A stretch of DNA of 64,000 nt from an uncultured Christensenella sp. (lineage in GTDB: Bacteria > Bacillota > Clostridia > Christensenellales > UBA3700): NCBI GenBank assembly GCA_910583995.1, contig CAJTYW010000001.1, positions 157,366-221,365 of the forward strand, given 5' to 3'. This document shows positions 16,025-42,619 of the stretch, piece by piece. The notes below the pieces were generated by a model, which was given only the letters and a program-made list of their open reading frames with translations, did not search any database and was not told the origin of the DNA. The translations under genes were made by a program, and so were the position numbers. How positions within the stretch are numbered: position 1 is the stretch's first letter; each line of letters starts with the position of its first letter.

Positions 16025-16933
16025 TTAATTGTTGCTTACTGGAAATGGAAGAATCAAACTTTGCTGACCTTGTCTTTCGTGACCTTTAAAGAATACTGCT
16101 ACAGTATTAGGACCTACGTGTGAGCCGATAATGCAAGTTAAATCGCAATACTTTACTTCCAAACCTGTACGCTCAACAAGTACATTACCAATTTCCTTTG
16201 CATCATCTAAACAATCGCTATGTGCCATAATTATAAAATCATTTTCAGGAATAATGATATTTTTCATAACCATATCAATCATTGTTTTAAATGCTTTTTT
16301 CTGTCCACGAACTTTACCTACAACATTGATTTTTCCTGCATAATCAAGAGACAAAACAGGTTTGATACCCAAAATTGTACCAATTGTTGCTTCAATAGCA
16401 TTAATTCTGCCACCTTTTTTCAAGTGTGTTAAATCTTGCACAATATAATAATGAGAATAACACAATTTATTCTCTTCACAATAACTGTACACTTCTTCAA
16501 TTGTTTTGCCATCTTTTTGCAACTTGATGCAATCGCTTAATAACAATCCCAATGCACCTGAACCGCATAATGTATCAACTACCATTATTTTTTTGTCAGG
16601 GAATTTTTTTGATAATTCGTTTACAGTCGGAGTAAAGTTTTCAAAAGTAGAACTTACACCGGAAGAAAAACATAAATGTAAAATGTCATAACCTTCGTTT
16701 AACAAATCATTGAATTTAGTAATGGCATCAAATTGATTTGCTTGAGAAGTTTTGCAAGAAGAGCCTGCACGCATCTTATCATACAAATCTTTTGAAGTTA
16801 TTTTTGTATTTTCCAAATCATATTCTTCACCATCAATAGTAATAGGCATAACTACTCTGACAATATTGTTTTCTTCAAAAAACTCAGGATAAATGTCACA
16901 AGTATAATCAGTTGTAATTACAAATTTTTTCAT
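16025..16933 (-). CDS. DegV family fatty-acid-binding protein (FakB-like)
   Basis: 302 aa. Typical DegV N-terminus KFVITTDYTCDI and overall DegV pattern. Confidence 0.9.
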   Translation of the reverse strand: MKKFVITTDYTCDIYPEFFEENNIVRVVMPITIDGEEYDLENTKITSKDLYDKMRAGSSCKTSQANQFDAITKFNDLLNEGYDILHLCFSSGVSSTFENFTPTVNELSKKFPDKKIMVVDTLCGSGALGLLLSDCIKLQKDGKTIEEVYSYCEENKLCYSHYYIVQDLTHLKKGGRINAIEATIGTILGIKPVLSLDYAGKINVVGKVRGQKKAFKTMIDMVMKNIIIPENDFIIMAHSDCLDDAKEIGNVLVERTGLEVKYCDLTCIIGSHVGPNTVAVFFKGHERQGQQSLILPFPVSNN

Positions 16934-16942
16934 TTTTACTCC

Positions 16943-16962
16943 TTTGATAATTTCTTATCAAA
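16943..16962. promoter_or_regulatory. palindrome TTTGATAA-TTTC-TTATCAAA between the degV -10 and its RBS (operator or 5'-terminal stem-loop)
   Basis: Perfect 8-bp inverted arms with a 4-nt spacer. It overlaps the predicted +1 of the degV promoter and abuts the GGAG RBS. Confidence 0.3.
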
Positions 16963-16965
16963 TAA

Positions 16966-16994
16966 ATATTAACACATAAATTAAAATTAGTCAA
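16966..16994 (-). promoter_or_regulatory. sigma-A type promoter of degV (TTGACT-17-TAATAT)
   Basis: Hexamers read on the minus strand with a 17-nt spacer. Confidence 0.5.
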
Positions 16995-17156
16995 TGTAAA
17001 AAACAAATAAATTTTATTTTATCAAAAAATTCACTTTATTTTTGCCTTTTTAGCACTTAATACACATAATCTAAAATTTTTGTGTAATAATCCTGTTATT
17101 TAATCTGTTTATTGTGTAAAGTTTTTTATATGTTTTTACACTATTTTGCAACAAAA

Positions 17157-17184
17157 TAATCTCCGCAAAAAATCACGGAGATTA
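17157..17184 (-). terminator. rho-independent terminator after pfp
   Basis: 9-bp stem TAATCTCCG/CGGAGATTA with a 10-nt loop. Followed on the minus strand by TTTTGTTG. Confidence 0.7.
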
Positions 17185-17244
17185 AATTTGTTTCAGAATA
17201 TTTGTTTTTTTAGTCTAAAATATCGTAAATTTAGCTAATTTAAA

Positions 17245-18495
17245 TTATTTCTTTTCTACAAAAACTTTCTTTAATTTTGCAAATCTTGGAAGACCATCTT
17301 CAAGTGGAGCTTTGCAGTCACCTTGAATTAGTGGTAATGCGTATTTAACAAATTCATCAGATACATCAGTACCATTATTGATAATCCACTCTGCAGGAAC
17401 AGTTTTTTCTGTATTTGCAGCAAGTTCCAATGGCATAGCTTTGTAATTGCATACATAGTTACCATCTTTATCATAGCTACGCTCAAAAATAACCATTTTG
17501 TCTGTCTCGCCGCTAACTGCAACTTTAACAGATTCACGACCAGCATTGAAAGCTTCTTCAACGTCAACTTTACTTGCAAGGTGTGCACCACATCTTTGCA
17601 TCAAGCTAAATTCGATTGCTCTTGTTTTGCAACCAAACTTTTCTTTGCAGATATTAGCTAAAGCACTACCTACACCACCAAGTTGAGCGTGACCGAAAGA
17701 GTCTTTTGCAAGATTTTCAGCAAATAATTCTGCAACCAAAGTGCCTTCTGCATTTTTAATACCTTCACTTACGCAAACAAGGCATTTGTTAGCATTTTTC
17801 TTCATTACATTATCTACATCGCTAATGAATTTATCAATATCGAAAGCAACTTCAGGAAGATAAATTAAATCAGGACCTAAGCCTTTAAAGCTAGCAAGCT
17901 TAGATGCTGCAGTAAGCCAACCTGCATTTCTACCCATTACTTCGATAACTGTAATCATTGGAGTATCATAAACACTTGCATCAAGTTTAACTTCCATAGT
18001 AGTTGTAGCAACATATTTAGCAGCAGATGCGTAACCTGGGCAGTGGTCTGTACCAAACAAATCGTTATCAATAGTCTTTGGAACGCCAATAACTCTGCAC
18101 TCCCAACCGCTGTTTGCCATAAACTTAGAAATTTTATTACAAGTATCCATACTGTCGTTACCGCCATTATAGAAGAAATATCTTACATTGTATTTTTTGA
18201 ATACTTCAAGCAATCTCTTATAATCAGTATCGTCAATGCTAGCGTCTTTTAATTTATATCTTACAGAACCCATTGCTGAACTTGGAGTGTTCTTTAATAG
18301 CAATAATTCCTCTTTAGACTCTTTTGAAATATCATAGAATTCTTCGTGAAGAATACCTCTGATACCGTGTGCAGCACCATAAACTTCTGTGATGCAATCT
18401 TGCTCCAAAGCTTCAATAAATACACCTGCAGCACTGCTGTTGATTACTGATGATGGACCACCTGATTGTCCAAACATGCAAGCACCTTTTAACAT
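17245..18495 (-). CDS. pfp: pyrophosphate-dependent phosphofructokinase (diphosphate--fructose-6-phosphate 1-phosphotransferase)
   Basis: 416 aa PFK-family protein. Carries GGNDS (Asp at the position of E. coli Gly104) and PKTIDND (Lys at the position of Gly124), the two residues associated with PPi specificity. RBS GGAGGT. Confidence 0.85.
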   Translation of the reverse strand: MLKGACMFGQSGGPSSVINSSAAGVFIEALEQDCITEVYGAAHGIRGILHEEFYDISKESKEELLLLKNTPSSAMGSVRYKLKDASIDDTDYKRLLEVFKKYNVRYFFYNGGNDSMDTCNKISKFMANSGWECRVIGVPKTIDNDLFGTDHCPGYASAAKYVATTTMEVKLDASVYDTPMITVIEVMGRNAGWLTAASKLASFKGLGPDLIYLPEVAFDIDKFISDVDNVMKKNANKCLVCVSEGIKNAEGTLVAELFAENLAKDSFGHAQLGGVGSALANICKEKFGCKTRAIEFSLMQRCGAHLASKVDVEEAFNAGRESVKVAVSGETDKMVIFERSYDKDGNYVCNYKAMPLELAANTEKTVPAEWIINNGTDVSDEFVKYALPLIQGDCKAPLEDGLPRFAKLKKVFVEKK

Positions 18496-18521
18496 AACCT
18501 TTTACCTCCGTAATTTTAAAA

Positions 18522-19487
18522 TTATAAACTTAATATATTAATTTGCTCATATAAAGCATTATTAAATTCCCTTTTCATCTTAACTGCTTCTACAATATCA
18601 AAATCGACGATTTCGTTATTTTTAATACCTACAGCTCTTTGAGTTTTGCCTTCAATCAATAAATCTACTGCACGAATTGCAAATTTTGCAGCAAGTTGTC
18701 TATCCATCATTGTTGGTGAGCCACCGCGTTGAATATGTCCTAATGTTGTGCATCTAATAGAAAGATTAGGATTAATACCTTTTAGCATAATCTTAAGTTC
18801 TTCTGCGTGACAAACACCTTCAGCAAGTATGATAATGTCTGAAGTCTTACCTTTTTTAGCATTTTCGGTAAGTTTGTTTGAAATATTAATTATATCCAAT
18901 TTAACTTCAGGAACAATTACATTTTCCGCACCACCGCACAAAGCTGTGTACATTGCGATATCACCGCATTTCCTGCCCATAACTTCCACAATGCTAATTC
19001 TATCGTGAGAAGTCATTGTATCTCGCAAATTGTTTATTGCACTCAAACAAGTATTAACTGCAGTATCAAATCCTAATGTATAATCGGTATATTGCAAATC
19101 ATTATCAATAGTACCTGGAATACCTACAGTGTTTATACCAAAGTTTGTTGTAAGGTCTTTTGCGCCCATAAGGCTACCATTACCACCAATAACAACTAAG
19201 GCATCAATATTATGTTTTTTTAATGTTTCAACGGCCTTTTTTTGACCTTCTAAAGTCTCAAATTCAGGGCATCTAGCTGTTCTTAAAATAGTACCACCAC
19301 GTTGAATAATATCTGAAACAGACCTTGAATTTAACTCTTGTACTTTGTTTTCAATAAGTCCAGTATAACCTTTTTCTACACCAAAAACTTTAAGACCTTT
19401 TGCCAAAGCGTATCTTGTTGTTGCTCTTATGCAAGCATTCATACCTGGTGCATCGCCACCACTTGTTAAAATTGCAATATTTTTCAT
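18522..19487 (-). CDS. pfkA: ATP-dependent 6-phosphofructokinase
   Basis: 321 aa. GGNGS and PGTIDND (Gly/Gly, the ATP-type signature). Classic N-terminus IAILTSGGDAPGMNA. Confidence 0.95.
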   Translation of the reverse strand: MKNIAILTSGGDAPGMNACIRATTRYALAKGLKVFGVEKGYTGLIENKVQELNSRSVSDIIQRGGTILRTARCPEFETLEGQKKAVETLKKHNIDALVVIGGNGSLMGAKDLTTNFGINTVGIPGTIDNDLQYTDYTLGFDTAVNTCLSAINNLRDTMTSHDRISIVEVMGRKCGDIAMYTALCGGAENVIVPEVKLDIINISNKLTENAKKGKTSDIIILAEGVCHAEELKIMLKGINPNLSIRCTTLGHIQRGGSPTMMDRQLAAKFAIRAVDLLIEGKTQRAVGIKNNEIVDFDIVEAVKMKREFNNALYEQINILSL

Positions 19488-19544
19488 TTTTAGCCTCTTA
19501 AGTTAAAAAATTTTTATTAATTTTTGTTTAAATTAGCATTTAAA

Positions 19545-19790
19545 TTATTTTGTGCTAACTTTTTCGCTTTCAACTATACCAAATTTAGTATATATTTTAG
19601 CATTGCCTTTTATTTTGATTAAAGAAGTTTTATCTGTAAACTGCATAACCAATACTTCGCCTTTATCTAAAGCTTCAGTATGATGCGGGCGTGTATCCTG
19701 ACCACGAGTCATTCCTATAACCTGCACTCCACTATTTTCTGCCTTTACAACGATATATTCACTTTGCGTATTTTCACAAGATAAATCCAT
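19545..19790 (-). CDS. mtrB: trp RNA-binding attenuation protein (TRAP) homologue
   Basis: 81 aa.
- Aligns over about 67 residues, at roughly half identity, with my remembered B. subtilis MtrB sequence.
- Shared blocks: VIGMTRGQDTRPHHTE, LDKGEVL, QFTDKTS.IK.KG, G.VESE.
- RNA-contact Lys/Lys/Arg positions are retained as K, K, K.
- RBS AAGGAG. Confidence 0.85.
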   Translation of the reverse strand: MDLSCENTQSEYIVVKAENSGVQVIGMTRGQDTRPHHTEALDKGEVLVMQFTDKTSLIKIKGNAKIYTKFGIVESEKVSTK

Positions 19791-19820
19791 AAAAACTCCT
19801 TTAATTACAAATACATTTAA

Positions 19821-19849
19821 ATACTAATATATTTTTTGTATTTTGTCAA
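19821..19849 (-). promoter_or_regulatory. sigma-A type promoter upstream of mtrB (TTGACA-17-TAGTAT)
   Basis: Minus-strand TTGACA at 19844-19849, a 17-nt spacer, then TAGTAT at 19821-19826. Confidence 0.55.
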
Positions 19850-19983
19850 GATATTTTTGATTTTTTTGCAATTAGCTATACTAAAATTGCATATAAATGT
19901 TATTTATGCTAAAATGTTTATCTCTAACCTATTTTTATAAAAACTACATTTTTAAGTTAAGCTCAATTGCAAACAAATTTTTA

Positions 19984-22900
19984 TTAAACTAATTTATAAT
20001 TCTCTTCGCCTACAATTGCTACCAATTCACTAAATAAAGCATTTGTATTTTGAACGCAAACGCCACTATTCAATGCTTTGCCACGGAACTTTAATATTGC
20101 AGGAATCATTCCGGGATATGCAGACAAAACTTCAATTACACTTTTTACTGTTGATTCTTCGTTATCGGCAATATTTATGTATAATTTGCTTGATTTTGTT
20201 TGTTTTTTTTCTGCTTTAATTGGTGTTTCGTCTGTAAGTAACCATTCTTTTACATCTTTAACAACAATTTGTGACCTACCTGCAACTTGTAATTCACCTT
20301 CAACTTTTATTATTTTATCTTTTACAAGCAAAGGTTTAAATTTATCATAAGATGATGGGAATAATACCAAATCAATTGTACCATACAAATCTTCAAGCCT
20401 TACCATAGCCATGGATTTGTTTGATTTTGTAATTCTTATTCTAACATCGGTTATCATACCGCCAAGAGAAACATACTTTTTGTCATATTCTTGTATCAAG
20501 CTAGTTAAATCGCTATCTTCAACATCATCTTCCATATCATCTGTTGCTTTTTCCGCATCAAGTATAGGTTTTATGTCGTTTAATGTAAAGCTTTCAACTG
20601 AATATTTTTCTCTGTATTCGTCAAGTGGGTGTCCAGATAAATATAAGTTTAACATATCTTTTTCACTTGATAAAATATCGTTTTTAGGATATTCAGGTAT
20701 TTTAACCATATTAAAAGTGCTTTCTTCTTCGCCAAACAAATCGTCAAACATAGTAATTTGTCCGTTACTGCTCAAAGATTTATCGTGGTTACTTACATTG
20801 ATAATTGCTTCATAATTTACAATATGAGTTGCCCTTGTTTCGTTAAAACAATCTAATGCGCCCGCTTTTATCAATGACTCTAACATTCTTTTATTTAATG
20901 CAGACTTGTCCGCACGCTTTATCAAATCTTCCATACTGGTAAATTTGCCATTTCTGTTTCTCTCTTCAACAATAGAAGAAATAGCAATTTCACCAACATT
21001 TTTAATACCCATCAAGCCATAACGCAAACCGCCATTTTCGCATTTAAAGTAAACATTAGAAATATTTATATCTGGTGGATAAATCGTTACACCACTGCTT
21101 CTAAGATATTCCACATATTTTGCAATTTCGTCTTGGTTTGTAATACGATTATTAATAACTGCCGCAATAAATTGTACTGGATAATATCTTTTTAAATATG
21201 CTGTTTCATACGCACAAACGGCATAAGCTGCTGCGTGTGACTTATTAAAAGCATAAGATGCAAAACTCATCATATTATCAAATATTTTGTTTGCAGTTTC
21301 TAAATCAACGCCTCTTTTTAAACAACCATCAACTGCTTTTTGAGCTGGTGCTACTAAATCACCTTTATCATTGTAAACAGCTTCTTTTGCAGGAGCTCCT
21401 TCAATAAAATACTGACGCTCTTTTGCAAGCACATCTGCTTTTTTCTTTGCCATTGCACGGCGTACTAAATCCGCTCTGCCATAAGTATAACCTGCCAAAA
21501 CTTGTACAACCTGCATAACTTGCTCTTGATATACAAGGCAACCATATGTCATATTAAGTATTGGCTCTAAAAGTGGGTGCATATATGTAATTTTTTCAGG
21601 GTTATTTTTACTATTGATATATGTCGGTATACTATCCATAGGTCCTGGACGATATAATGAAATACCCGCTATGATATCCTCGAGAGATTTTGGCAAAAGT
21701 TGTTTCATAAACTTTTTCATACCAGGAGATTCTAGCTGGAACACTGCATCTGTCTCACCAGAACCTAATAATTCATATACATTAGGGTCATCATAACCTA
21801 ATTTTTCAAAATCTACTTCGTCGCCTGTTGTTTCTTTGATATACTGTTTTGCTTTTTTAATATCTGTTAATGTTCTAAGTCCCAAAAAGTCCATTTTAAG
21901 CATACCAACTTCTTCAACTTCTTCTTTTTGGAATTGTGTTGTTACATCGTCACCGCTCTTTTGAAGTGGTACAAAGTCTGAAATTACTTCTTTACATATA
22001 ACTACGCCTGCAGCGTGTTTAGAACACTGTCTTGGCATACCTTCAAGCTGCATAGCAATATCAAGTACTTTGTGCATTTGCTCATTATTGTTATAGGCAT
22101 CAAGCACTTCAGGGATTATGTCGTCTGTACTTTTTCCAAGTCCTAGCAAATTTTCAAGCTTAACTTTACCACCTGGAATCATTTTGGTTATTGCGTTTAC
22201 TTCTGCAAGTGGCACATTATAAACTCTTGCAACGTCCTTTATTGCATTTTTTGTTGCCATTGTACCAAGTGCTAAAATTTGACAAACCTTTTCTGCTCCA
22301 TATTTTTCAATAACATAATCAATAACTTCGCCACGACCATCAACGCAAAAGTCAATATCAAAATCGGGGTTTGATACACGCTCTGGGTTCAAAAATCTTT
22401 CAAACAGCAAGTTATATTTTAGCGGATTTACATTTGTAATACCAATTGCATAAGCAATAATACTACCAACACCGCTACCACGTCCTGCACCTACAGGAAT
22501 ATCGTGCCTTCTTGCGTAATCTATGAAATCCCAAACTATCAAATAATACTCTGCAAAGCCCATTTTGATAATTATATCAAGTTCGTATTCTGCTCTTTGT
22601 TTTATTTCTTCATCGATTTCGCCATATCTTTTAACTAAGCCTTCATACGCAAGCGTACGCAAAAATTCTGAAGGAGTTTGTCCGTTTTCAGGCGTATAAG
22701 GTGGCATTAAATCTTTCTTTTCTATTCTAACGTGACATTTTTTTGCAATTTCAAACGGAGTTTCCAAAGCTTCAGGACACCAACTGAATAATTCAAACAT
22801 TTCTTCATAAGTTTTCAAGTAAAACTCGTCAGAATAAAATTTCATTCTTTTTGGGTCATCTATAGTCTTTCTAGTTTGCACGCAAAGTAGCACATCGTGA

Positions 22901-23556
22901 GCTTCAGCATCTTTCTTTTCCAAATAGTGTGCATCGTTTGTCGCAACTACTTTTACGCCAATTTCTCTTGCAATTCTAACAAGCAACGGATTACATTGTT
23001 TTTCTTCTTGTATTCCGTGGTCTTGAATTTCGATATAAAAGTCATCTTTGCCAAATATATCACGCATAGTTATGGCATATTCTTTTGCTTTTTCGTATTC
23101 ACCTGCAATCAAATATTGCGGAATCCTACCACCAATGCAGGCACTGGTAGCAATCAAACCTTTACTATGCTCTTTTAAAAATTTCAAATCTATTCTAGGT
23201 TTATAATAAAATCCTTCAGTATACGCAATAGAATCAAGCTTTACCAAATTTTTATAACCTTCATTATCTTTTGCAAGCAATAAAATATGGTACATTTCCT
23301 TACTTGTTTTATCGTGCATATCGTCACATATATATAATTCACAACCTATAATAGGCTCAATTCCTGCAGCTACACAAGCTTTTTGAAAAGTAAATACGCC
23401 AAACATTGAGCCGTGGTCAGTAATTGCACAGGCTGGCATATTTTTTTCTACACAAGCATCTATTAAAGGGTGTTTTTTTCCGTTTGTAATTCTGCAAGCA
23501 CCATCAAGCAAACTCATTTCTGTATGTACGTGCAAATGTATAAATGGTTTTGGCAT
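19984..23556 (-). CDS. dnaE: DNA polymerase III alpha subunit (DnaE type)
   Basis: 1190 aa. N-terminal PHP domain HLHVHTEMSLLDG, polymerase core, HhH and a C-terminal OB fold. Confidence 0.97.
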   Translation of the reverse strand: MPKPFIHLHVHTEMSLLDGACRITNGKKHPLIDACVEKNMPACAITDHGSMFGVFTFQKACVAAGIEPIIGCELYICDDMHDKTSKEMYHILLLAKDNEGYKNLVKLDSIAYTEGFYYKPRIDLKFLKEHSKGLIATSACIGGRIPQYLIAGEYEKAKEYAITMRDIFGKDDFYIEIQDHGIQEEKQCNPLLVRIAREIGVKVVATNDAHYLEKKDAEAHDVLLCVQTRKTIDDPKRMKFYSDEFYLKTYEEMFELFSWCPEALETPFEIAKKCHVRIEKKDLMPPYTPENGQTPSEFLRTLAYEGLVKRYGEIDEEIKQRAEYELDIIIKMGFAEYYLIVWDFIDYARRHDIPVGAGRGSGVGSIIAYAIGITNVNPLKYNLLFERFLNPERVSNPDFDIDFCVDGRGEVIDYVIEKYGAEKVCQILALGTMATKNAIKDVARVYNVPLAEVNAITKMIPGGKVKLENLLGLGKSTDDIIPEVLDAYNNNEQMHKVLDIAMQLEGMPRQCSKHAAGVVICKEVISDFVPLQKSGDDVTTQFQKEEVEEVGMLKMDFLGLRTLTDIKKAKQYIKETTGDEVDFEKLGYDDPNVYELLGSGETDAVFQLESPGMKKFMKQLLPKSLEDIIAGISLYRPGPMDSIPTYINSKNNPEKITYMHPLLEPILNMTYGCLVYQEQVMQVVQVLAGYTYGRADLVRRAMAKKKADVLAKERQYFIEGAPAKEAVYNDKGDLVAPAQKAVDGCLKRGVDLETANKIFDNMMSFASYAFNKSHAAAYAVCAYETAYLKRYYPVQFIAAVINNRITNQDEIAKYVEYLRSSGVTIYPPDINISNVYFKCENGGLRYGLMGIKNVGEIAISSIVEERNRNGKFTSMEDLIKRADKSALNKRMLESLIKAGALDCFNETRATHIVNYEAIINVSNHDKSLSSNGQITMFDDLFGEEESTFNMVKIPEYPKNDILSSEKDMLNLYLSGHPLDEYREKYSVESFTLNDIKPILDAEKATDDMEDDVEDSDLTSLIQEYDKKYVSLGGMITDVRIRITKSNKSMAMVRLEDLYGTIDLVLFPSSYDKFKPLLVKDKIIKVEGELQVAGRSQIVVKDVKEWLLTDETPIKAEKKQTKSSKLYINIADNEESTVKSVIEVLSAYPGMIPAILKFRGKALNSGVCVQNTNALFSELVAIVGEENYKLV

Positions 23557-42504: not shown

Positions 42505-42533
42505 TTGACAACTTCAAAATTTTATCATATAAT
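42505..42533 (+). promoter_or_regulatory. sigma-A promoter of tRNA-Trp (perfect TTGACA-17-TATAAT)
   Basis: TTGACA at 42505-42510, a 17-nt spacer, TATAAT at 42528-42533. The tRNA 5' end follows 12 nt later. Confidence 0.7.
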
Positions 42534-42544
42534 AGACTAGTCTT

Positions 42545-42619
42545 AGGGGAGTGGCTCAACGGTAGAGTAGTGGTCTCCAAAACCATTGGTTGCGTGTTCG
42601 AATCGCGTCTCCCCTGCCA
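42545..42619 (+). tRNA. trnW: tRNA-Trp (anticodon CCA), CCA end encoded
   Basis: Manual cloverleaf. 7-bp acceptor stem AGGGGAG/CTCCCCT. D arm GCTC..GAGT. Anticodon loop CU-CCA-AA. T-loop TTCGAAT. Discriminator G followed by CCA. Confidence 0.93.

What the first reader, a model, noticed from the sequence alone, without database searches (positions are those of the whole stretch)
19545..19849. TRAP (MtrB) homologue in a Clostridia-like sporeformer, apparently heading an mtrB-pfkA-pfp transcription unit
**Homology.** The 81-aa ORF aligns along nearly its whole length with B. subtilis TRAP as I remember it. The tryptophan-pocket block G.TRG.DTR.HH and QFT..TS is conserved. The three RNA-contact basic positions are conserved as LDKGE, IK and K.

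**Unusual context.** In Bacillus, mtrB follows mtrA/folE and controls trp genes through 9-11 (G/U)AG repeats. Here it has its own near-consensus promoter. It is followed after 57 nt, with no hairpin, by pfkA and then pfp. The first terminator is at 17157-17184.

**No visible target.** I found no trp biosynthesis gene and no (G/U)AG-repeat array anywhere in the window, including the trpS and tRNA-Trp leaders. The regulator's targets in this organism are therefore open.
Basis: partly seen in the sequence, partly recalled or inferred. Interest (0 to 1): 0.6.

Follow-up and report, generated by a model that had tools for sequence, protein, structure and literature searches.

The report
Divergent TRAP regulator; target is trpB leader
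The small gene is a real tryptophan-sensing TRAP (MtrB) protein in its usual clostridial position. Its missing RNA target very probably lies on another contig, in front of a lone tryptophan-synthase gene that lets this tryptophan-dependent gut bacterium recycle indole.

Summary
The 81-codon ORF (window 19545-19790, minus strand) is a full-length TRAP/MtrB homologue (Pfam 114 bits; PDB TRAP E about 1e-23).

**Context.** The position is not unusual. dnaE lay upstream of mtrB in 29 of 30 loci sampled across other Clostridia, and pfkA downstream in 22. It is the rule in this Christensenellales-like family of mouse-gut MAGs.

**Divergent subfamily.** RNA contacts Phe32 and Lys37 are replaced (Pro and Ala here). 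Glu36, Lys56, Arg58 (Lys here) and the tryptophan pocket are kept. Median dN/dS is 0.09.

**Auxotrophy.** The genome lacks trpA, trpC and trpE but has a lone trpB on contig C6.

**Target.** The only five-triplet (G/U)AG chain in the genome lies about 240 nt upstream of that trpB. It sits behind a promoter and a 5' hairpin. It overlaps the ribosome-binding site of a 13-codon, one-Trp-codon leader ORF whose stop codon abuts an intrinsic terminator.

**Relatives.**
- The same design (5-9 NAG triplets) precedes trpB or TrpB2 in TRAP-positive relatives.
- TRAP-negative sister genera have a UGG-specifier T-box there instead.

**Mechanism.** Trp-loaded TRAP most likely blocks leader translation and so favours termination. 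This step is inferred.

The scan has reported both the divergent TRAP and the trpB array before on other DNA. I found no paper describing either.

The parts
19545..19790 (-). mtrB: an 81-aa TRAP homologue of a divergent subfamily. In B. subtilis numbering it has Pro32, Ala37 and Lys58. Glu36, Glu42, Lys56 and the Trp pocket are kept.
   Evidence: Residue roles come from PMC1474065 and PMC4854314.
19796..19802 (-). Shine-Dalgarno sequence AAAGGAG, 5 nt before the mtrB ATG.
   Evidence: Read directly from the sequence.
19821..19849 (-). Promoter-like site TTGACA-17-TAGTAT (10 of 12 matches), which would leave a leader of about 25 nt.
   Evidence: Contigs from one mouse-gut metatranscriptome sample cover mtrB up to 19791 and nothing beyond, while probable DNA runs continue. 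This is a very weak hint only.
19488..19544 (-). The 57-nt mtrB-pfkA spacer, with no terminator-like hairpin. A promoter-like site (TTGAAA-18-AATAAT) at 19573-19544 overlaps the 3' end of mtrB.
18522..19487 (-). pfkA, ATP-dependent 6-phosphofructokinase (321 aa).
   Evidence: TIGR02482, 402 bits against a cut-off of 371.
17245..18495 (-). pfp, diphosphate-fructose-6-phosphate 1-phosphotransferase (416 aa).
   Evidence: NF010675, 539 bits.
17157..17184 (-). Intrinsic terminator-like hairpin plus T-run after pfp. It is the only such site in 16900-20100.
19984..23556 (-). dnaE (1190 aa), the conserved upstream neighbour of mtrB in Clostridia.

Best explanation
**What the gene is.** The ORF is a functional mtrB (TRAP) gene. 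It sits at the ancestral clostridial position between dnaE and pfkA. In this small-genome gut family it has been drawn into the pfkA-pfp unit.

**The subfamily.** The protein keeps the tryptophan pocket and the contacts for the A and G of each RNA triplet (Glu36, Lys56, Arg/Lys58). It has lost the side chains that hold the first base (Lys37; Asp39 varies) and the Phe32 that stacks on G3.

**The organism.** It cannot make tryptophan de novo. It keeps one salvage enzyme that joins indole and serine: a lone TrpB in this genus and TrpB2 in sister genera.

**The proposed target (G000 contig C6, outside the window).**
- Promoter at about 76240-76268.
- 5' hairpin at 76284-76304.
- Five UAG/GAG triplets at 76307-76331. 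The last ones overlap the AGGAG ribosome-binding site of the leader ORF.
- A 13-codon leader ORF at 76340-76381 with one Trp codon.
- An intrinsic terminator that begins right after the stop codon (76382-76417).
- trpB at 76569-77795.

**Proposed mechanism (inferred).**
- With ample tryptophan, the TRAP ring binds the triplets and blocks translation of the leader ORF. The terminator forms and trpB stays off.
- With scarce tryptophan, TRAP is off the RNA. A ribosome runs to the end of the leader ORF and masks the 5' arm of the terminator, so RNA polymerase reads through into trpB.
- The conserved Trp codon probably adds a tRNA-Trp charging input. How it does so is unresolved.
For: **Family membership and selection**
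- Profile and structure-database matches.
- Median dN/dS is 0.086 over 109 ortholog pairs.
- The subfamily sits on one side of a 99/95-supported branch, away from other Clostridia and Paenibacillus TRAPs.

**Residue pattern**
- In 30 family orthologs Phe32 is always Pro, and position 37 varies (A/N/M/Q/S/G/V).
- Glu36, Lys56 and the Trp-pocket residues T25, G27, T30, Q47, T49 and S53 are kept.
- Residue roles are taken from PMC1474065 and PMC4854314.

**Auxotrophy**
- trpA, trpC and trpE are absent from the 98%-complete genome.
- TrpA is absent from all TRAP-positive genera of the family.
- A lone trpB scores 533 bits.

**The array**
- It is the only five-triplet (G/U)AG chain with 2-3-nt spacers in 1.79 Mb on both strands.
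- It starts 262 nt upstream of that trpB. The chance of such a placement is about 1e-4.
- No triplet of any kind forms a chain of 7 or more anywhere in the genome.

**Relatives**
- 29 of 31 leaders examined in TRAP-positive genomes (7 genera) show the same design: 5' hairpin, 5-9 NAG triplets ending on the ribosome-binding site and ATG, a leader ORF with one Trp codon, and a terminator. G016 (g4) has the array directly before the TrpB2 start and no leader ORF. G017 (g5) has a T-box and no array.
- In 30 leaders with a leader ORF (these 29 plus G040, which gave no TRAP hit), the leader stop codon ends between 17 nt inside the terminator stem and 14 nt before it.
- Strict chains of 5 or more occur in 20 of 31 leaders, against 0.9% of shuffles.

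**Complementary distribution**
- Upstream of TrpB2, the longest strict chain is 3-8 triplets in 21 TRAP-positive genomes and 3 or fewer in 27 of 28 TRAP-negative ones.
- About 19 TRAP-negative loci instead carry a T-box (E 1e-10 to 1e-16). The one T-box alignment I read (L147) has a UGG specifier.
- None of 24 TRAP-positive leaders has a T-box.

**Positive control**
- Other Clostridia whose TRAP keeps Phe32 and Lys37 have arrays of roughly 9-13 triplets before trpE.

**First-base relaxation fits the lost pocket**
- Genus g1 uses U 73% and G 18%.
- Genus g9 uses A 52%, C 22%, G 17% and U 9%.
Against: - No binding or expression experiment exists.
- Five triplets is well below the 9-11 of Bacillus targets. 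K37A weakens RNA binding in B. subtilis TRAP (PMC1474065).
- TRAP presence or absence follows genus boundaries, so the TRAP/array versus T-box contrast may reflect only two or three independent events.
- Exceptions exist. G040 has the array leader but no TRAP hit. G017 is TRAP-positive but has a T-box and no array before trpB.
- No antiterminator structure was found.
- In most genera the Trp codon lies 19-26 nt upstream of the terminator stem. That is too far for a ribosome stalled there to mask the stem. Its role does not fit the simple model.
- Other gut Clostridia regulate a lone trpB by leader peptides alone (scan notes). TRAP might therefore be dispensable for this leader.
Confidence: 0.72

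Rival explanations
1. TRAP in this family has taken on a role tied to glycolysis. It would regulate or partner with pfkA-pfp, which it heads. This is the reading the first reader hinted at.
For: - mtrB overlaps or nearly abuts pfkA in most family genomes: the gap is -4 to 29 nt in 23 of 30 loci.
- The gene order is invariant in all 30 loci.
- mtrB, pfkA and pfp all appear in contigs from one gut metatranscriptome sample.
Against: - dnaE lies upstream of mtrB in 29 of 30 loci of other Clostridia and pfkA downstream in 22, there with a gap of 250-470 nt in 18 of the 22. All five complete genomes checked among them have trpE, and three show triplet arrays upstream of it.
- No NAG chain longer than 3 lies upstream of mtrB or around the pfkA start in any of the 30 family loci.
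- Short gaps are expected in reduced genomes.
Confidence: 0.06
2. The trpB and TrpB2 leaders are purely ribosome-mediated leader-peptide attenuators. The AG-rich stretch is only an extended ribosome-binding region. TRAP acts on some other, unrecognised target, or binds RNA too weakly to matter.
For: - Every leader has a Trp-codon ORF with a terminator next to it.
- Leader-peptide attenuators before a lone trpB were noted by the scan in other gut Clostridia.
- Lys37 and Phe32 are lost.
- There are only five triplets here.
Against: - The 5-nt periodicity of NAG is far beyond shuffles.
- It persists while the sequence between the triplets diverges across 7 genera.
- It is present where TRAP is present and is replaced by a T-box where TRAP is absent.
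- A single Trp codon without a 2:3 antiterminator is a poor stand-alone attenuator.
Confidence: 0.15
3. The gene is a decaying relic, left behind after the trp operon was lost.
For: - There is no de novo trp pathway.
- Two RNA-contact residues are lost.
Against: - Median dN/dS is 0.086.
- All 33 family hits have intact frames without stop codons.
- The Trp pocket is kept and Pro32 is invariant across 8 genera.
- A ribosome-binding site is present.
- The gene is represented in gut metatranscriptome contigs.
Confidence: 0.03

Closest known systems
TRAP (MtrB) of Bacillus subtilis and Geobacillus stearothermophilus (PDB 1WAP, 1C9S, 1QAW)
   Same: - Same fold family over the full length (E about 1e-23).
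- Same tryptophan-pocket residues.
- Same Glu36, Lys56 and Arg/Lys58 contacts for the A and G of each triplet.
- The target is an array of NAG triplets with 2-3-nt spacers preceded by a 5' stem-loop.
   Different: - Phe32 is Pro and Lys37 is Ala or variable. A 2006 paper called Glu36, Lys37, Lys56 and Arg58 invariant in all known TRAPs (PMC1474065).
- Asp39 varies.
- The gene lies between dnaE and pfkA, not after folE/mtrA.
- No anti-TRAP gene is present.
- The host is a tryptophan auxotroph.
- Arrays have 5-9 triplets rather than 9-11. In some genera they are mostly AAG and CAG.
TRAP translational repression of trpG, trpP and ycbK in B. subtilis (array overlapping the ribosome-binding site)
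   Same: The last triplets overlap a Shine-Dalgarno sequence and lie within about 10 nt of a start codon. Bound TRAP should therefore block ribosome loading.
   Different: The occluded ORF is a tiny leader peptide and not the regulated enzyme. The output would be transcription termination at the adjoining terminator.
Leader-peptide attenuators: E. coli trpL, and pyrBI-type ribosome-RNA polymerase coupling
   Same: - A short ORF with a Trp codon just upstream of an intrinsic terminator.
- As in pyrBI, a ribosome reaching the end of the ORF would sit on the 5' arm of the terminator.
   Different: - There is only one Trp codon.
- No 2:3 antiterminator was found.
- Entry to the ORF appears to be gated by a protein-binding array.
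- No Rfam family matches.
Trp-specific T-box leaders
   Same: They control the same TrpB2 gene in TRAP-negative sister genera of the same family. The one T-box alignment read has a UGG specifier.
   Different: A T-box is an RNA-only sensor of uncharged tRNA-Trp. It is absent from all 24 TRAP-positive leaders tested.

Membership tests
TRAP / MtrB (Pfam PF02081, NCBIfam NF009724) | A full-length profile match above the curated cut-off. | tested here: met
   - Pfam: 114.2 bits against a cut-off of 21.3, covering profile positions 2-69 of 69.
- NCBIfam equivalog: 117 bits against a cut-off of 117, so exactly at the threshold.
- PDB TRAP chains: E about 1e-23.
TRAP / MtrB | Tryptophan-pocket residues Thr25, Gly27, Asp29, Thr30, Gln47, Thr49, Thr52 and Ser53 (PMC1474065). 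| tested here: met
   All are present in the window protein as T28, G30, D32, T33, Q50, T52, T55 and S56 (an offset of +3). In some sister genera Thr52 is Ile.
TRAP / MtrB | RNA-contact residues Glu36, Lys37, Lys56 and Arg58, plus Phe32 stacking on G3 and Asp39 bonding to G1. | tested here: not met
   - Glu36 and Lys56 are kept, and Arg58 is Lys.
- Lys37 is Ala and Phe32 is Pro.
- Across 30 family orthologs position 32 is always Pro, and positions 37 and 39 vary.
- The protein is a member by homology, but not a canonical one at the RNA surface.
TRAP / MtrB | An array of (G/U)AG triplets with 2-3-nt spacers in the RNA of a tryptophan-related gene in the same genome. | tested here: met
   - Five triplets lie at G000:C6:76307-76331 in the lone trpB leader. 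This is the only chain of 5 or more in the genome.
- That is fewer than the 9-11 of Bacillus targets.
- Relatives carry 5-9 triplets.
TRAP / MtrB | An 11- or 12-subunit ring, and tryptophan-dependent RNA binding. | not testable with these tools
   This needs purified protein, with native mass spectrometry or crystallography and filter binding with and without tryptophan.
B. subtilis-type TRAP transcription attenuator (trpEDCFBA leader) | An antiterminator that overlaps the triplet array and competes with a downstream terminator. | tested here: inconclusive
   The terminator and the 5' stem-loop are present and conserved. No antiterminator was found in consensus folds of four leader groups.
Ribosome-mediated Trp attenuator (trpL type) | A leader ORF with tandem Trp codons and mutually exclusive 1:2, 2:3 and 3:4 hairpins. 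| tested here: not met
   There is one Trp codon only and no 2:3 alternative. The Rfam search gave no match.

The most novel reading that the evidence does not exclude
This TRAP subfamily has been re-tuned. Having lost the first-base pocket (Lys37, Asp39) and Phe32, it would read 5-9 'NAG' triplets, mostly AAG and CAG in some genera.

It would act as the gatekeeper of a Trp-codon leader peptide whose ribosome controls the adjoining terminator. That would make a compact two-input attenuator: free tryptophan sensed through TRAP, and tRNA-Trp charging or a nascent-peptide effect sensed through the ribosome.

The regulated genes are the indole-salvage enzymes (TrpB or TrpB2) of tryptophan-auxotrophic gut bacteria. 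In sister genera the device is interchangeable with a T-box.
Probability: 0.4. Interest if true: 0.7.

Novelty: new variant of a known kind. Interest (0 to 1): 0.55.

Why it matters
- **Protein-RNA recognition.** TRAP is a textbook model that has been studied almost only in Bacillus relatives. A natural subfamily under strong selection that lacks two 'invariant' RNA contacts, paired with shorter arrays whose first base is relaxed, is a ready-made experiment on how the protein and its RNA site co-evolve.
- **Gut physiology.** Small-genome Christensenellales-like gut bacteria appear to sense tryptophan in order to control indole salvage. Indole and tryptophan are major currencies between host and microbiota.
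- **Annotation.** mtrB next to pfkA is inherited synteny and not a functional link. 'No trp operon' does not mean 'no TRAP target'.

Tried and rejected
- **Genome-wide array scans.** Strict (G/U)AG chains, NAG chains, spacers of 1-4 nt, density in 60-nt windows, and all 64 triplets were tried. Nothing beyond the trpB leader turned up, and no triplet forms a chain of 7 or more.
- **A four-triplet chain before tRNA-Trp (window 42533-42551).** It looked tempting, but it lies mostly in the -10 box and before the transcript start. I rejected it as chance.
- **Autoregulation or pfkA control.** No NAG chain longer than 3 lies near mtrB or the pfkA start in 30 loci. No (G/U)AG array lies in the mtrB-pfkA gaps of other Clostridia.
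- **Tryptophan transporter families as targets.** Families TrpP (PF17099) and Trp_Tyr_perm (PF03222) gave no match in this genome.
- **Anti-TRAP.** The only match is 20.6 bits, below the cut-off, inside a 400-aa ORF.
- **RNA evidence for co-transcription.**
  - Contigs from one metatranscriptome sample cover pfp, pfkA and mtrB.
  - No contig listed bridges the mtrB-pfkA gap.
  - Contigs cannot show transcript ends.
- **E. coli-type antiterminator in the leaders.** None was found.
- **Literature.** Searches for TRAP with TrpB2, or for mtrB in Clostridia, found nothing relevant.

Full report
**1. Observation.**
- The ORF at window 19545-19790 (minus strand) encodes 81 aa and is preceded by AAAGGAG.
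- It matches Pfam TrpBP (PF02081) over profile positions 2-69 of 69 at E 2.4e-33.
- It matches the NCBIfam MtrB equivalog at exactly its cut-off.
- It matches every solved TRAP at E about 1e-21 to 1e-23.
- NCBI already names near relatives 'MAG: trp RNA-binding attenuation protein MtrB [Clostridia bacterium]'.
Promoter-like matches are hardly enriched in this AT-rich DNA.

**2.
- The B. subtilis chain 1WAP aligns with an offset of three residues.
- Read against solved TRAPs and Paenibacillus MtrB (65-69% identical), the motif F-H-H-S/T-E-K-L-D-K-G-E reads P-H-H-T-E-A-L-D-K-G-E here.
- The true contact Lys37 is Ala, and Phe32 is Pro.
[quoted passage not shown] K37A is deleterious to RNA binding (PMC1474065).
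- Phe32 stacks on G3. Lys37 stacks on G1, and Asp39 bonds to G1 (PMC4854314).
- All tryptophan-pocket residues named in PMC1474065 are present.

**3. Organism.**
- The window is G000:C1:157366-221365 in a 1.79-Mb, 36-contig genome that is 98% complete with 32% G+C.
- Close relatives are uncultured Christensenellaceae or Christensenella MAGs of the mouse gut.
- The stretch is found in mouse-gut metagenomes.

**4. The context is ordinary.**
- TRAP occurs in 33 of 74 genomes of the same GTDB family and in 96 of 400 sampled genomes of the class.
- All 30 family loci examined have dnaE-mtrB-pfkA-pfp.
- In 30 loci from other Clostridia families, dnaE is upstream in 29 and pfkA downstream in 22.
- Those other TRAPs keep Phe32 and Lys37. 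All five complete genomes I checked have trpE, and three of them show arrays of roughly 9-13 (G/U)AG triplets upstream of it. This also serves as a positive control for my scans.
- What differs in this family is the spacing. The mtrB-pfkA gap is -4 to 29 nt in 23 of 30 family loci and 57 nt here. It is 250-470 nt in 18 of the 22 loci from other Clostridia where both genes were found.
- Co-transcription is therefore likely but not shown. RNA contigs from one mouse-gut sample cover pfp, pfkA and mtrB up to 19791, and no contig listed bridges the junction.

**5. A divergent, selected subfamily.**
- In all 30 family orthologs residue 32 is Pro. Residue 37 is A/N/M/Q/S/G/V, and residues 39-41 vary.
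- Glu36, Glu42, Lys56, Arg/Lys58 and the Trp pocket are kept.
- Median pairwise dN/dS is 0.086.
- In a maximum-likelihood tree the family sequences lie on one side of a 99/95-supported branch, away from other Clostridia and Paenibacillus TRAPs.
- Other low-scoring clostridial TRAPs show single changes (Leu or Ile at 32, Met at 37) but not this combination.

**6. Tryptophan auxotrophy.**
- trpA, trpC and trpE are not found in the own genome, while the same models hit all 14 control genomes.
- In the family, TrpA is absent from every TRAP-positive genus.
- TrpA is present in 7 of 8 genomes of genus g2, which lacks TRAP and carries a T-box before its trp genes.

**7. The target.**
- A scan of both strands of the whole genome for (G/U)AG chains with 2-3-nt spacers gave a single chain of five, at C6:76307-76331.
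- A lead from an earlier scan note on lone trpB genes prompted a search for trpB. That search found one gene, at C6:76569-77795 (533 bits).
- The array starts 262 nt upstream of this gene on the same strand. The chance of that placement is about 1e-4.
- The leader reads, in order:
  - TTGACT-17-TATAAT promoter
  - a 7-bp hairpin
  - UAG-au-UAG-uau-UAG-acu-UAG-ag-GAG, with the last triplets inside AGGAG
  - 8 nt, then an ATG
  - a 13-codon ORF (MNILSKRWRCHLI)
  - a terminator hairpin starting at the base after the stop codon, then a U-run
  - about 150 nt
  - trpB

**8. Relatives.**
- All nine genomes of the genus have the lone trpB behind the same design, with 5-6 triplets.
- The other TRAP-positive genera have no true trpB (apart from G017, genus g5). 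They have a 'TrpB-like PLP enzyme' of the TrpB2 type (TIGR01415, 594 bits).
- In genera g3, g6, g7, g8 and g9, TrpB2 is preceded by the same parts: a 5' hairpin that covaries, 5-9 NAG triplets ending on the ribosome-binding site and ATG, a leader ORF of 9-16 codons with exactly one Trp codon (often R-W-R or F-R-W-stop), and a terminator.
- In G016 (genus g4) the array lies directly before the TrpB2 start codon and there is no leader ORF.
- In 30 leaders with a leader ORF (29 TRAP-positive plus G040), the leader stop codon ends between 17 nt inside the terminator stem and 14 nt before it.
- Synonymous differences in the Ser, Ile and Asn codons of the leader ORFs suggest that the peptide is translated and constrained.
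- First-base usage differs by genus: g1 is U 73% and G 18%; g3 is U 51% and G 29%; g9 is A 52%, C 22%, G 17% and U 9%; g7 is C 80%, from a single leader with five triplets.
- This relaxation is what loss of the G1 pocket would permit.

**9. Complementary distribution.**
- Upstream of TrpB2, the longest strict NAG chain is 3-8 in 21 TRAP-positive genomes. It is 3 or fewer in 27 of 28 TRAP-negative ones.
- The exception, G040, belongs to a TRAP-positive genus and is 94% complete.
- About 19 TRAP-negative loci (genera g10 and g11) have a T-box directly before TrpB2 (E 1e-10 to 1e-16). The one alignment I read (L147) has specifier UGG and a UGGC bulge.
- None of 24 TRAP-positive leaders has a T-box or any other Rfam match.
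- The same salvage gene is therefore tryptophan-regulated in both groups, by two different devices.
- These groups follow genus lines, so they are few independent events.

**10. Mechanism.**
- Shown:
  - the anatomy of the leader
  - its conservation across relatives
  - its co-occurrence with TRAP
- Inferred:
  - Trp-TRAP binds the array and occludes the leader ribosome-binding site, as at B. subtilis trpG, trpP and ycbK (known from established work on B. subtilis; I did not check a paper for this here).
  - Without a ribosome on the leader ORF the terminator forms.
  - With translation, the ribosome at the stop codon covers or abuts the 5' arm of the terminator and allows read-through. This resembles pyrBI-type coupling.
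- Unresolved: the single UGG.
  - In g8 and part of g9 it lies 1-7 nt before the stem, so a starved ribosome would mask the stem.
  - In g1, g3, g6, g7 and most of g9 it lies 19-26 nt upstream, where a stalled ribosome would not mask it.
  - I found no antiterminator.

**11. Rivals.**
- A glycolytic role has no support beyond linkage.
- A pure leader-peptide attenuator with TRAP uninvolved is not excluded. It fits poorly with the periodic array and its distribution.
- A relic gene is contradicted by the selection data.

**12. Novelty.**
- The library searches found no paper on TRAP with TrpB2 or on mtrB in Clostridia.
- The scan itself has reported the dnaE-mtrB-pfkA position, the altered RNA pocket and a TRAP array over a Trp-codon leader gene before, on other genomes.
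- Those notes are leads and not evidence. I re-derived each point here.
- I added four things: the tally of auxotrophy, the alternation between TRAP arrays and T-boxes within one family, the first-base shift by genus, and the stop-to-terminator geometry.

Noticed in passing
window 42533-42551 (tRNA-Trp at 42545-42619, plus strand): Four (G/U)AG triplets with TRAP-like spacing run from the -10 box (TATAAT at 42529-42534) into the first bases of tRNA-Trp. Most of them lie before the likely transcript start, so this is probably chance. It is one of only 11 chains of 4 or more in the genome.
   Followed up: partly
L125-L148 (TrpB2 loci of TRAP-negative genera g10 and g11), for example L147 838-639 (minus strand): T-box leaders scoring 57-81 bits, below Rfam's gathering score of 93 but at E 1e-10 to 1e-16, lie directly upstream of the TrpB-like (TrpB2) gene. 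In L147 the specifier is UGG and the bulge is UGGC. TrpB2 is therefore tryptophan-starvation-regulated in these gut bacteria.
   Followed up: partly
L099 (G017, genus g5) 899-1131 and the ORF starting at about 1174: This TRAP-positive genome has a full-score T-box (112 bits) before its lone trpB. It is followed by a 27-codon ORF containing F-V-F-R-W, and there is no triplet array. The layout recalls the T-box plus leader peptide of the B. subtilis anti-TRAP operon.
   Followed up: no
Leaders L079, L089-L096 and L102-L123: The single UGG of each leader ORF is often displayed in or next to a small hairpin, for example CGCGA-UGGCGU-UCGCG. It keeps a spacing of 19-26 nt or 1-7 nt to the terminator stem. 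The peptide context R-W-R or F-R-W-stop is conserved across genera. An arrest-peptide or pause-synchronising role is possible.
   Followed up: partly
G040 (genus g9, L103); G012 and G015 (genus g3, L097 and L098): G040 has the NAG-array leader but gave no TRAP hit at 94% completeness. G012 and G015 lack TRAP and carry a true trpB behind a plain promoter with no leader. Other g3 genomes have TRAP plus TrpB2 with the array.
   Followed up: no
window 17245-19487: An ATP-type PfkA and a PPi-type Pfp lie in tandem with no pyk after them. This pair follows mtrB in all 30 family loci.
   Followed up: partly
G000:C6:75609-76115 (L079 484-990): An acetolactate synthase small-subunit (IlvN/IlvH) gene lies directly upstream of the trpB leader (195 bits).
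   Followed up: no
G000:C7:49427-49549 (L159): The only Anti-TRAP (PF15777) match is 20.6 bits, below the cut-off of 32. It lies inside a 400-aa ORF. It is probably the Cys-rich zinc-finger region of a DnaJ-type protein, but I did not check this.
   Followed up: no
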